Source: Candidatus Nanohalobium sp. (GTDB taxonomy: Archaea > Nanohalarchaeota > Nanosalinia > Nanosalinales > Nanosalinaceae). From it: DNA of 20,498 nucleotides. Location: the NCBI GenBank assembly GCA_042217555.1, contig JBDGSL010000084.1:1-20498 (forward strand), in the 5' to 3' direction. A program made the position numbers. Positions 15,001 to 18,000 of this stretch are shown here, piece by piece. Within the stretch, counting starts at the first letter, position 1. Each line of letters opens with the position of its first letter.

Positions 15001-18000
15001 CTATTTCGTAGCCGTAGAAGATGACGAAATTATAGGAGTAGCGGGATATCAAAGCGAAAGTGGTACCGTAGCAGGAATCTTTGTAGATCCAGAACTCAAG
15101 GGTTCAGGCATAGGGTCGAAGCTAATGGATAGGATTGAGGAGGATGCCCAGTCAGAAGGGTTAGAGGAGATGGAGACTCTTGCCTCTTTGGAAGCAGTAG
15201 AGTTCTACAAGAAAAATAGCTACAAAGTTACAGAGGAAAAGAAACACGACATAGAAGGCAAAGACATAGGAATCAAAGTAATGAAGAAACAACTATAGAG
15301 ATTGAATTAAGTTCTCAAGTCTTCTTTTATCATTCTGACAGAGTCTTTGGAGTAGTTTTCTCCATTCTTGTAGTCTTGTATTGCGGCGAGTATGTAAGAT
15401 GCTCTTAAGTCGAGGTCTTCGATTTCTTGCTCTGTAAACCAGCCGTAATCGATTACGGTGTCTTCCTCTCTAATACTGACTTCGCCACTTTGAATCTGGG
15501 AGTGGTAGACGAAGTTGACGATGTTGTTTGGATCTTCTGATTCTGGAGGAATATATGTTTTCACGAGGCTTTCGGGTTCTACTGTCAGTCCTGTTTCCTC
15601 TTTCGCCTCACGCTTGGCTCCTTCTACTGGTGTTTCTCCGATTTCGAGGCTTCCAGCAGGAAGGTTCCATTCTCCTTTAACGTGTTCTTTTCCTTCTTGG
15701 ATCAGTAGGTATTTGTCGTCTTTTTCTATCAGGTTGGCGGCTACTACCACAAATTTTTGAGCCATATATGGCGTTTATAGATACATATTTTTCTTTCCTT
15801 CGCTATTGTTCCAGATTTCCCGGTTTTTGCTGTCGCTTGAAGAAAGCGTGTTAAAATTGCCAAGGGTATTTAACAGTCAAGGTAAAAGTGCCTTGTTAGA
15901 GGGTCTGGGAGACAAGGAGACCGAATACAGGGATAGTAAAGCCTGCCTCCCGCATCATTTCGTCTCACGAAATGCTGCTATTAACAGCATCGCCGAAGGC
16001 GAATGCTGTGCCCCGCACTTTTCCTCTGGAAAACATGCTAGAGCTGGAATCAAGTTCGAATCCAGCGTCCCGTATTTCCCCTCTGGAAGACATACTATAG
16101 TCGGAACCGGGTTCTTTCCCCTCAAAGCCTGAAAGCTTATTTAAGAATACGACAGGCCTCAGTTAAACAGGCGAGGACAGGGCCCGTAGCTCAGCTTGGA
16201 CAGAGCATTCGGCTTCGGAACCTTAAGTTCTCCGATCTCTTGAGGAGAACAAGGAAAGAGAAGCGAACTTTGTGAGCTTCGACAGAAGTTACCGAAAGGT
16301 CCAGGGTTCAAATCCCTGCGGGCTCGAACTGGTTACGCTCAGATTCACACGCAAGGCAGGGTTCTCAGGAACCCCGCATCCTGATGATCGAACTCTCAGG
16401 AGTTCGTGGTTAAAATCCCTGCGGGCTCGTCACTTGACGCAACCCGACGGATTTGATATCTTCGCAGAAAACGAAAATCTGCGATAGATTTTCTTGGAGA
16501 AGATTTCTTACTGAATCTTTGAATCTCTGGTTTTTGGCGGGTTTAAAATTTGAGATTCTTACTGAGGTTTTCTGTGTCTCGGAAGTTCGTTTTTTGACTC
16601 CTGGTGCTTTGTTTCTGTTTTTCCTACCGGTGTATTGTTTTCTAGTTGTGTGTAGGTGAGAGTAGTTTTTTGGTGTTTTTATAAAGATGGGAAGCTCTGT
16701 TTTTGTTTAGATGGTATTGTTTAGCCGTTTGAAGGATTTGGTTTCCCGGCTATTTGATGAGGTGGTTGTTATGTCTGATGATAAGAGTTCGGAGTCTCGT
16801 GACGATAAGAAAAAGCAGAAATCTGGTAAGAAGCAGAAGGTTCAGTTTCCACAGTATTTTCAGCAGCAGAGGCCTTCAAGGAGTAAGAATCCTAACAGTA
16901 CTAACTTGAAGACTCCTGTTATGAGGGGTGTTGTTGTTTCCAAGTTTGATGGAGACCGGATCTGGGTTGAGGCGTCGGGTAATATGAAGGGCCGTTACGG
17001 AGTTGAGGTGCCGAAGGGTTACGATCCAGAGGACTTCCAGCCAGGGACAGAGGTTGCTCTTGATCCCAACAGTTTCAAAGTAACTGATATTGTCGGTAAA
17101 GGCCAGGACGCTGAGTTCCAGCCTGTTGACACAGATGTCACTTTCCAGGATATCGGAGGCCTGGATCACGTGATTCAAAGCCTTTCATCAAACGTTGGCG
17201 CCCAGTTAAACTCGAACAAGCTGGATAAGATCCAGAGCTGGGGTATGGAAATGGATAAAAGTATACTTCTTATCGGCAGGCCGGGAACAGGTAAAACCCA
17301 TCTTGTGAAGGCGTTAAGCAATGAGTACGATGCTGACATGTTTATGATCAACGGGCCCCAGCTTGTTGAGAAGTTCATAGGTGAAGGCGCGAAGAAGGTT
17401 AAACGGCTTTACGAACAGGCACGTGCATCGGACAAGCCTGCTATCGTGTTTATAGATGAGATAGACGCTGTTGCGAAGAAACGTCTTGACGACAGGAGAC
17501 ATGGAGGCGAAGAAGTTGAGAGAACAATGTCTCAGCTTCTCTCTGAGCTTGACGGCCTTGACAGTGAGGAAGGAAACGTTATCAGTATATTTGCCTCGAA
17601 TACTCCTGATATTATAGATCCTGCACTGCTTAACAGGACTTCTGCGATCGAGGTACCTGTTCCGGACAGAGAATCCAAGAGAGAGATTCTGGAAGTTCAC
17701 ACCCGGGATATGGACCTGGAAAGCAGCGTTGATCTTGATGTCGTGGCAGAGGAACTGGAAGACGAGTTCACAGGCAGAGATATCAAGCAAGTTGTCAAGC
17801 AGGCAGCCGTAAACGCTATAGACAGCACTGAAAACCCTGAAGATGCAGAGGCAGACATGACGGACTTCACGGATGCTGTACAGGACCTCAAGGAAGGAAA
17901 CCTGGGTATTGAGAAGGACTTCCTTGGCACAACCAGCGAACATCCAAACGAAATGTTCGCCTAAAAACCTGGTTTCTCTCCCTTTTAACAAGGTGTTTTT

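What a model noticed while it worked through the whole genome (the two positions that open the first line are those of the whole stretch)
16180..16428. tRNA genes flanked by an intron-like element and a partial copy of their own end
Ten of 42 tRNA genes are followed (7) or preceded (3) by a 47-165-nt intron-like insert and then a second copy of the tRNA's own last 12-22 or first 16-17 nt. In seven the exact repeat stops precisely at the mature tRNA terminus (discriminator base or +1). Example: tRNA-Arg(TCG) C83:16180-16326, insert with the k-turn module 16327-16410, repeat AAATCCCTGCGGGCTCG. The same layout occurs at other tRNAs in other Nanosalinaceae genera and at the orthologous tRNA-Pro(TGG) of a congener. 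At tRNA-Arg(TCG) two of three congeners have the empty site and the third a different insert with the same repeat, so the inserts are recent and site-specific. The repeats mark either tRNA-targeted insertion with [...]
Evidence so far: Self-repeat scan of all 42 genes, 450 nt each side: 3' repeats ending at -1 for Ile-TAT (20 nt), Ser-CGA at C27:61643 (22; ARAGORN had misread it as Arg-TCT, call 185), Gly-TCC (17), Arg-TCG (17), Ser-GGA (12); diverged for Ser-GCT, Phe; 5' repeats from +1 for Leu-TAA (16), Pro-TGG (17), Leu-CAA (positions 4-16). Sequences in calls 82,85. Relatives: initiator Met in L071 (16-nt repeat AATCCACGCCCCGCTA around a 95-nt insert), Ala-CGC in L077 (15 nt), Pro-TGG in L078 (5' repeat). 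The element downstream of tRNA-Glu (C37:12704-12870) ends with the 3' end of tRNA-Gly, showing copying between tRNA loci. Filled versus empty site: the orthologous tRNA-Arg(TCG) of the three other Nanohalobium genomes [...]
(Added by a program. Inside this text positions count along the whole contig: contig position 1 is position 1 of the stretch shown here. "Call 12" and the like, gene names such as g00115 and contig names such as C1 are that model's own, and its searches are not shown. The text may have been shortened before it was handed on; [...] marks where a part breaks off. The agent that wrote the report below was given it as the finding of a first reader that could run no searches.)

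Follow-up and report, generated by a model that had tools for sequence, protein, structure and literature searches.

The report
Hairpin mini-elements duplicating tRNA gene ends
Tiny hairpin-shaped DNA inserts sit beside many tRNA genes of salt-loving and other archaea, each carrying a forward and usually an inverted copy of its own host gene's end, which points to a small mobile unit that spreads without any transposase found here.

Summary
The repeat is real: tRNA-Arg(TCG) 16180-16326, an 86-nt insert, then an exact copy of tRNA positions 57-73 (16413-16429). The typical unit (54 of 69 duplications, 37-64 nt) reads: tRNA end, small cap hairpin, imperfect INVERTED copy of the local T-arm end, GAAR..YTTC hairpin, direct copy. 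A second such unit follows in the window (16430-16550). The inverted arm tracks its own tRNA; 5' cases are mirror images at the D-arm; the footprint also ends at the stop codons of PCNA and thermosome genes. The layout occurs in 24 relatives, in Halobacteria isolates, other DPANN and some bacteria. The inserts are not introns, the k-turn is unsupported, and 'recent' holds only partly (one locus moved between genera). No candidate enzyme follows the units (reverse transcriptase 7/50 family genomes, Y1 2/50, GIY-YIG 10/50, IS110 0/70). Best reading: non-autonomous hairpin units made and spread at DNA level by fold-back/template switching and microhomology-guided conversion (inferred, 0.5). Closest in print: E. 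coli tRNA-linked repeats and Haloquadratum SMR-A repeats. This scan noted similar units earlier on other DNA.

The parts
16137..16145 (+). TATA-like box upstream of the tRNA (label inferred)
   Evidence: position; same motif at similar distance before orthologous Arg-TCG genes
16180..16326 (+). tRNA-Arg(TCG) gene
   Evidence: Rfam RF00005, 50.3 bits; ARAGORN with introns
16219..16290 (+). 72-nt intron at the canonical 37/38 position, built of two hairpin modules
   Evidence: absent in orthologues L014 and L020, other sequences in others
16310..16326 (+). first copy of the repeat = tRNA positions 57-73
16327..16412 (+). unit 1 (long type): cap hairpin with GTTACGCT loop (16332-16339), linker, hairpin, third hairpin with TGATGA (16381-16387); no clear inverted arm left
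   Evidence: related modules in introns and spacers
16413..16429 (+). second, exact copy of tRNA positions 57-73
16430..16437 (+). cap of unit 2
16438..16456 (-). imperfect inverted copy of tRNA positions 55-73; pairs with the second copy in the predicted folds
16465..16536 (.). GAAR..YTTC hairpin split by a nested double hairpin (16473-16493, 16499-16520); homologous to units at tRNA-Tyr and tRNA-Lys of G016
16536..16550 (+). decayed third copy of the T-arm
   Evidence: aligns with intact GGGTTCAAATCC of the G016 units
16711..17964 (+). AAA ATPase gene (proteasome-activating type by recall), used as synteny marker
   Evidence: Pfam AAA; tblastx synteny

Best explanation
These are tiny non-autonomous hairpin units that arise and spread at the DNA level. 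Shown: the unit is cap + inverted copy of the local gene end + GAAR..YTTC hairpin + direct copy of the local end; its inner boundary is a cloverleaf loop (T-loop for 3' units, D-loop for 5' units, which are mirror images) and its outer boundary is close to the gene terminus; units stack in tandem, decay away from the gene, and take up nested modules; the same caps and hairpins sit at different tRNA isotypes while arm and repeat follow the host gene. Inferred: (1) a short hairpin module enters an exposed loop of single-stranded DNA; (2) repair synthesis folds back at the hairpin, copies the gene end in reverse, turns again at the cap and rejoins an intact template, giving end-cap-inverted end-hairpin-end, and only products that keep a whole gene survive; (3) finished units move to other tRNAs and other genera by conversion that switches template at the last 2-6 shared bases of the acceptor end and switches back at the universal T-arm sequence, so the repeat is always the local one; (4) mismatches in the arm opposite positions 67-70 are kept because a perfect arm would invade the acceptor stem. 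Host replication and repair proteins would suffice; no element-encoded enzyme is needed.
For: Anatomy: 54 of 69 duplications are 37-64 nt (38 at 50-58 nt); 49 of 54 hold the hairpin and 47 of 54 the inverted T-loop anchor, against 26 of 125 tRNAs without a duplication. Arm follows the host: 27 of 53 rank in the top tenth against other tRNA ends, 24 of 40 distinct ends in the top quarter; T-loop base 57 and the facing arm base covary, A with T 56 of 56, G with C 29 of 33; match is high at 62-66, at or below background at 67-70, raised at 71-73 (39 units). Mirror 5' units: 9 of 13 loci have an inverted D-arm copy ranking in the top 5% (6 are tRNA-Tyr). Same footprint at the stop codons of PCNA (21-nt repeat) and thermosome genes. 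All 16 cross-isotype pairs with similar caps share the last 2 or more tRNA bases, against 31% of the other 1086 pairs (permutation p 0.024). Gly trailer copied to Glu across a shared GCCGCA end; one hairpin block at Arg, Tyr and Lys; Ser-CGA intron plus unit 97% identical across genera. No strand bias in stem mismatches, G-T 36 against A-C 29 in 120 units. Units occur in single-contig genomes with no hit for RT, Y1 or IS110 (G020, G009, G017, G021, G004), and G017 has no PF00589 hit either.
Against: Caps are shared between loci, so most units were copied, not made afresh, and the first-formation step rests on anatomy alone. The arm is more decayed than the direct copy, which needs selection or later homogenisation. 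The tight length and fixed geometry would suit a dedicated enzyme. The loci were mostly picked by a pattern that demands a second T-loop motif, and kin are not independent, so the p values overstate. 0 of 22 unselected tRNA loci of three congeners carry a strict duplication. 4 of 13 5' cases and the window's own unit 1 show no clear inverted arm.
Confidence: 0.5

Rival explanations
1. A structure-specific enzyme acting in trans (a tyrosine recombinase working on folded single strands as at integron attC or CTX-phage attP sites, or an Ssn/RAYT-like ssDNA nuclease) recognises the long hairpin arm-hairpin-arm and recombines it with tRNA loops; replication resolves the product.
For: The folded unit has an outer stem, an unpaired spacer and an inner stem, with an extra base in the arm in 10 of 39, like attC (recalled); the left boundary clusters at 51-54, around the GTT of the T-loop. 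Ssn nucleases cut ssDNA near hairpin repeats (PMC11893778, passages). Double hairpins were found inserted in both terminal hairpins of an IS605 element.
Against: Y1 in 2 of 50 family genomes, GIY-YIG in 10 of 50 (none of 8 loci inspected was flanked by the hairpins), IS110 in 0 of 70, Cas1 absent from G000, PF00589 missing from several unit-bearing genomes. Exchange at the T-loop would give a foreign tRNA the donor's acceptor end. No strand bias in mismatches. A divergent or virus-borne enzyme is not excluded by Pfam searches.
Confidence: 0.27
2. The units are att remnants: integrase-driven islands entered at the T-loop or D-loop and were deleted down to about 55 bases.
For: A tRNA gene plus its displaced end fragment is the standard island signature, with T-stem sites in 1836 of 3919 islands and 5' fragments in 159 (PMC4383910, passages). 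G000 has 10 PF00589 hits over the cut-off and a real island at tRNA-Gln.
Against: One architecture and one length at 15 isotypes in 24 genomes is not what random deletion leaves; the real island has an integrase gene, a short end repeat and no arm or hairpin at its far end; the footprint also marks protein-gene ends; att sites do not explain the inverted arm.
Confidence: 0.08
3. RNA-mediated copying: processed pre-tRNA, trailer or intron RNA is reverse-transcribed and recombined back, so repeats stop at mature ends.
For: 49 of 69 repeats stop within one base of the discriminator and 21 of 69 start at 57-58, where methylated bases could stall an RT (recalled). G000 has two RT genes. GTTACGCT modules are mostly in sense (31 of 33).
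Against: RT in only 7 of 50 family genomes and missing from unit-rich single-contig genomes; both G000 RTs look like DGR cassettes (by recall of gene order); repeats often run into the flank; no trace of CCA in the arms inspected; some 57-58 starts are secondary double-hairpin insertions in the copy's T-loop; stop codons are not RNA ends.
Confidence: 0.07
4. Whatever their origin, the units are kept because the trailer is a functional small RNA (as for E. coli tRNA-linked repeats), released at the tRNA end and at the duplicated end. Not exclusive of the others.
For: Three E. coli TLRs are transcribed, processed and bind Hfq and CsrA (PMC8144298, passages). The region folds better than shuffles (z -2.7). 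In three halobacterial genomes 13 of 15 distinct loci examined lie beside tRNAs.
Against: No excess of G-U over A-C on the transcribed strand; patchy presence among close relatives; Rfam finds nothing; none of the five highly expressed ncRNAs listed for a cultivated nanohaloarchaeon resembles the unit by eye (PMC10266531, supplement passages).
Confidence: 0.15

Closest known systems
tRNA-linked repeats (TLRs) of Escherichia coli (22 genes at ten loci; PMC8144298, passages read)
   Same: Non-coding units behind tRNA or rRNA genes, one to five per locus, each ending in 18-19 bp identical to the 3' end of the gene upstream; origin and, for tRNA-linked members, function not known.
   Different: TLRs are longer (150-bp spacing at rrB); the passages read mention no inverted copy, no 5' mirror form, no protein-gene ends and no shared hairpin module. 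I did not compare sequences.
SMR-A small mobile repeats of Haloquadratum walsbyi (PMC3119063, passages read)
   Same: Short, transposase-free, with inverted ends, inserting into the terminal palindromes of IS605 elements, mechanism unknown; the double-hairpin module of G000 does the same at both ends of an IS605 element.
   Different: SMR-A are about 110 bp and make no target duplication; the tRNA units duplicate 16-24 bp and carry an arm made from the target. SMR sequences are in supplements I did not open.
Integrative islands at tRNA genes (T-loop/junction sites; PMC4383910, passages read)
   Same: Whole gene plus displaced end fragment; 3' and rarer 5' forms; tandem arrays.
   Different: No integrase, no cargo, about 55 bp instead of 2-200 kb, an inverted arm, and the same unit at many isotypes.
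Integron attC sites and CTX-type folded attP sites (recalled, no call)
   Same: Imperfect long hairpin with outer stem, unpaired spacer, inner stem; boundary near a GTT.
   Different: No integron integrase or gene cassettes found; arms are copies of the host gene; no strand bias seen.
REP/BIME with RAYT, and NTS/SRM repeats with Ssn nucleases (PMC11893778, passages read)
   Same: Dispersed 20-50-nt hairpins, in doublets and mosaics.
   Different: No cognate Y1 or small GIY-YIG gene tracks these units; no target duplication is described in the passages read.

Membership tests
tRNA-targeted integrative island (att remnant) | tRNA gene plus displaced end fragment in the same orientation | tested here: met
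tRNA-targeted integrative island (att remnant) | tyrosine integrase gene and cargo between gene and fragment | tested here: not met
   inserts 37-150 nt in all 69; contrast with the island at tRNA-Gln
Archaeal BHB tRNA intron | lies inside the gene and is bounded by a bulge-helix-bulge | tested here: not met
   insert lies outside a complete gene; no such motif at its junctions in the fold; no enzyme assay
Box C/D or k-turn RNA | C box opposite a D-box GA on the transcribed strand | tested here: not met
   no GA partner in the fold; module 6 sense, 3 antisense; no Rfam match over the insert
E. coli-type tRNA-linked repeats | unit behind the gene ending in 18-19 bp of the gene's 3' end, often tandem | tested here: met
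   16-24-bp repeats and tandem arrays
E. coli-type tRNA-linked repeats | sequence kinship with the E. coli TLRs | not tested
   no comparison run
E. coli-type tRNA-linked repeats | processed small RNA from the unit | not testable with these tools
   no RNA holder listed
SMR-A / PATE / MITE | no target duplication (SMR-A, PATE) or transposon-like terminal inverted repeats with short duplication (MITE) | tested here: not met
   16-24-bp duplication; arms follow the host gene
SMR-A / PATE / MITE | insertion into terminal palindromes of IS605 elements (nested double-hairpin module only) | tested here: met
   both ends of the C11 element against L076; one element only
REP-RAYT or SRM-Ssn system | cognate Y1 or small GIY-YIG gene present and flanked by the repeats | tested here: not met
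   Y1 2 of 50, GIY-YIG 10 of 50, doublets 41 of 50 family genomes; Pfam may miss divergent enzymes
Casposon or CRISPR-like adaptation | Cas1-family enzyme | tested here: not met
   no PF01867 hit in G000, 94% complete; relatives not searched
Integron attC cassette | integron integrase, strand-specific folded site, gene cargo | tested here: inconclusive
   similar fold but no cargo and no strand bias; PF00589 hits not typed to subfamily

The most novel reading that the evidence does not exclude
A widespread, undescribed class of minimal mobile DNA (about 55 bases) in archaea and some bacteria that targets the loops of tRNA cloverleaves and the ends of other genes, builds its own recognition hairpin out of the host gene's end, duplicates that end so the gene survives, and thereby seeds tRNA-linked arrays and possibly D-loop and anticodon introns; it would be moved either by host repair alone or by a not yet recognised single-strand recombinase.
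Probability: 0.35. Interest if true: 0.85.

Novelty: new variant of a known kind. Interest (0 to 1): 0.64.

Why it matters
tRNA-end duplications are routinely read as scars of integrated viruses; here they come from a 55-base unit with no integrase, so such calls need a second look. The origin of tRNA-linked repeats has been open since their description in E. coli, and the mobilisation of haloarchaeal small repeats is called enigmatic in PMC3119063. The same layout is present in cultured Halobacteria (Haloferax, Halovenus, Halobaculum), which makes the mechanism testable by genetics. The shared modules and the lateral transfer of an intron with its trailer also bear on how tRNA introns are gained and spread in DPANN archaea.

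Tried and rejected
IS605 ends as the source of the modules: the hairpins at both ends of the C11 element are absent from a 94%-identical element (L076), so they are later insertions. IS605 TnpA, RT, GIY-YIG, IS110 and Cas1 as the driver: too rare or absent. A weak family-wide PF00589 hit as a core recombinase: the G000 protein is a DEAD-box helicase; the nine other loci fetched for it were not examined. Homing-endonuclease cassettes as parents of the short units: two short free-standing LAGLIDADG frames lie by tRNA-Val and the initiator tRNA on C3, none by the units looked at; not followed further. A general direct-repeat footprint around all GAAR..YTTC hairpins: only 6% of 158 against 2% background, so most dispersed hairpins carry no long duplication. 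RT stop at a methylated base as cause of the 57-58 starts: two such cases are double hairpins inserted in the copy's T-loop, and 48 of 69 start at 50-55. Tail-hairpin similarity did not predict shared tRNA ends (23 pairs). The pattern gave 52 hits, taken as chance by their taxonomy and not inspected. The pattern (55 of 70 genomes) includes false hits inside Ser-CGA gene bodies, so I do not use it as a count. Sequencing runs: no RNA holder listed; in run X2 part of unit 1 had no cover while the downstream part did, which proves nothing. One viral contig matched the layout; its context was not studied. No covariance model was built, so no sensitive census exists.
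Full report
Observation. The window holds tRNA-Arg(TCG) at 16180-16326 with a 72-nt intron, an 86-nt insert, and an exact copy of tRNA positions 57-73 at 16413-16429. ARAGORN's 42 calls include miscalls, so 42 is not a clean denominator. Strictly, 4 of 42 anchored calls carry a copy of positions 58-73 with at most one mismatch; foreign tRNA ends gave 0 of 925. The finding's text names the family Nanosalinaceae; named records with the same layout are Nanohaloarchaea.

What the unit is. I collected 198 tRNA loci from G000 and from 169 loci of relatives, most of them chosen by a pattern asking for a second AATCC behind a T-loop, so frequencies from this set are not unbiased. 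69 have a direct copy (one further case with an N-filled insert was dropped); they come from 24 genomes, 15 genera and 15 isotypes by ARAGORN label. 54 inserts are 37-64 nt long. They read: a small cap hairpin that often closes on the last two tRNA bases (24 of 50 against 20 of 126 tRNAs without a duplication), an imperfect reverse complement of tRNA positions 55-73, a short spacer, a hairpin with GAAR and YTTC feet, and the direct copy. The hairpin is the monomer of a double hairpin scattered through spacers, introns and IS ends of G000 and found by pattern in 41 of 50 family genomes and 4 of 20 others in the order. The direct copy starts at positions 50-55 in 48 cases and 57-58 in 21; it stops at 73 in 32, one base later in 17, two in 7 and three or more in 13.

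The inverted arm belongs to its host gene. Against other tRNA ends the local end ranked in the top tenth in 27 of 53 anchored cases. In an independent scan of one genome per species, the arm base facing T-loop position 57 matched it in 85 of 89 loci. Complementarity is above background at 62-66 and 71-73 and at or below it at 67-70. The 5' cases are the mirror image, with an inverted copy of the D-arm: 9 of 13 loci, 6 of them tRNA-Tyr and so probably not independent; the two G000 and relatives' Pro-TGG cases and one Thr case show no clear arm. Two protein genes of G000, PCNA and a thermosome subunit, carry the same footprint ending at the stop codon. In G002 a tRNA-Leu has a similar array inside its D-loop (by eye).

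The window's locus is layered. Unit 1 (16327-16412) is a longer type with a GTTACGCT-loop cap and three hairpins; relatives of it sit in introns, after stop codons and behind tRNAs with or without a duplication.

Range. Among the 80 listed by name are Halobacteria isolates, Asbonarchaeaceae, Woesearchaeota, Pacearchaeota, Micrarchaeota, a Methanosarcinales bin and several bacteria. The inner hairpin differs between groups. In three halobacterial genomes 13 of 15 distinct loci that I examined lie beside a tRNA gene. Presence is patchy: 0 of 22 unselected tRNA loci from three congeners.

Movement between loci. Units with similar caps at different isotypes always share the last two or more tRNA bases (16 of 16 against 31%; three ARAGORN miscalls relabelled). 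The Gly-GCC trailer recurs behind Glu-TTC across a shared six-base end. The Ser-CGA gene with its 136-nt intron and first unit is 97% identical over 300 nt between G000 and G006, another genus, while the flanks do not align; among 94 introns this was the only cross-genus pair at 90% identity or more.

Enzymes. G000 has no Cas1 hit, one IS605 TnpA, two reverse transcriptases, two GIY-YIG hits and ten tyrosine recombinases over the cut-off. Across 50 family genomes Y1 is in 2, RT in 7, GIY-YIG in 10, PF00589 in 34 (some weak hits spurious); IS110 is in 0 of 70. Unit-bearing single-contig genomes lack RT and Y1 hits, and one lacks PF00589 as well. These are Pfam searches and can miss divergent or transient, virus-borne enzymes. 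Isolated mismatches in the stems show no strand bias (G-T 36, A-C 29), which gives no support to selection on an RNA fold or on one DNA strand.

Mechanism. Shown are the anatomy, host-tracking of arm and repeat, mirror symmetry, stacking, nesting and exchange between loci and genera. Inferred are the entry of a hairpin into a cloverleaf loop, fold-back synthesis that writes the inverted arm and repeats the end, survival only of products with a whole gene, and spread by microhomology-guided conversion. I put this at 0.5, a trans-acting single-strand recombinase or nuclease at 0.27, att remnants at 0.08 and an RNA route at 0.07; a functional trailer RNA (0.15) is compatible with any of them. Polyploidy, efficient gene conversion in halophiles, attC and CTX site structure, DGR gene order and RT stops at methylated bases are recalled, not from calls.

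What is known. E. coli TLRs have the same outward layout (PMC8144298, passages; PMC9245011, one passage). SMR-A repeats of Haloquadratum behave like the nested doublet (PMC3119063, passages; supplements not opened, and they may bear on kinship). Island signatures are from PMC4383910 (passages); Ssn from PMC11893778 (passages). PMC10266531 (passages and supplement passages) reports intron counts and five ncRNAs in cultivated nanohaloarchaea but nothing on these units in what I saw; 10.1101/2025.02.15.638363 (passages; supplements closed) shows nanohaloarchaeal viruses with integrases and tRNA genes; PMC7714728 (passages) added nothing; PMC8371274 was seen only as a listing. Ten searches found no description of a unit with inverted plus direct copies of tRNA ends; the library lacks most subscription papers, including the original TLR papers.

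Earlier notes of this scan. I reached the inverted-arm reading, before one search showed that other agents had described similar units in other archaea and CPR bacteria. Those notes are unchecked and are not counted as support.

Verdict. A real and widespread feature, wrongly labelled intron-like; a new variant of small transposase-free mobile repeats with an unexplained way of duplicating gene ends. Interest 0.64.

Noticed in passing
G000 C11:15170-16800 (L021), compared with L076: IS605-type element (tnpA plus tnpB, with an assembly gap) carrying a roughly 55-nt double hairpin inserted in each terminal hairpin.
   Followed up: partly
G000 C75:51923-54554 and C38:426-2142: Two reverse transcriptase genes with neighbours that look like diversity-generating retroelement parts (label recalled); a double hairpin lies at C75:53233-53277.
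   Followed up: no
G000 C12:115150-127580: Island of about 12 kb behind a tRNA-Gln gene with integrase, AAA ATPase and a resolvase-like gene; short end repeat near 127545. The tRNA gene itself seems to carry an extra insert in the D-loop.
   Followed up: partly
G000 C3:26960-28080 and C3:55786-57623: Free-standing LAGLIDADG-type frames beside a tRNA-Val gene and on both sides of the initiator tRNA gene, which has non-canonical inserts that ARAGORN misreads.
   Followed up: partly
L016 (G002 C45), about 1127-1397: tRNA-Leu(CAG) with an array inside the D-loop: three copies of a 7-9-base D-loop stretch separated by about 50-nt hairpin units, plus a canonical intron.
   Followed up: no
G000 C1:47962-48193 and L166 (G002): The 156-nt intron of tRNA-Lys(TTT) is 99% identical in two congeners whose upstream flanks differ, suggesting transfer of the gene body.
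   Followed up: partly
G000 C9:12160-12230 and window 10231-10302: Two nearly identical tRNA-Pro(CGG) genes with nearly identical upstream sequence on different contigs: a duplication or strain mixture in the bin.
   Followed up: no
G000 C29:34795-35010: tRNA-Phe followed after 14 nt by an exact 47-nt copy of its positions 20-66, then a decayed hairpin unit.
   Followed up: partly
window 8514-9849: Gene with two GIY-YIG-like stretches next to a small conserved gene; a 69%-identical protein occurs in G012 (L325); probably part of a mobile or defence region.
   Followed up: no
window 15940-16075: Hairpin-rich spacer upstream of the tRNA promoter with two similar CCCTCTGGAA blocks; other organisms in runs X1-X4 hold related pieces.
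   Followed up: no
window 1995-3134 and 11775-12917; 10326-11546: Two paralogous small-domain methyltransferase genes, and a short class II tRNA-synthetase gene (406 aa) next to tRNA-Pro(CGG).
   Followed up: no
G000 C12:91800-105520: Dense run of double hairpins in spacers of what reads as a ribosomal-protein gene cluster.
   Followed up: no
L490/L494 (G076 C1:1190709-1190928): Hairpin units ending in a tRNA-Leu-like end about 2.6 kb behind a tRNA-Leu unit: possibly a unit pair bracketing gene cargo.
   Followed up: no
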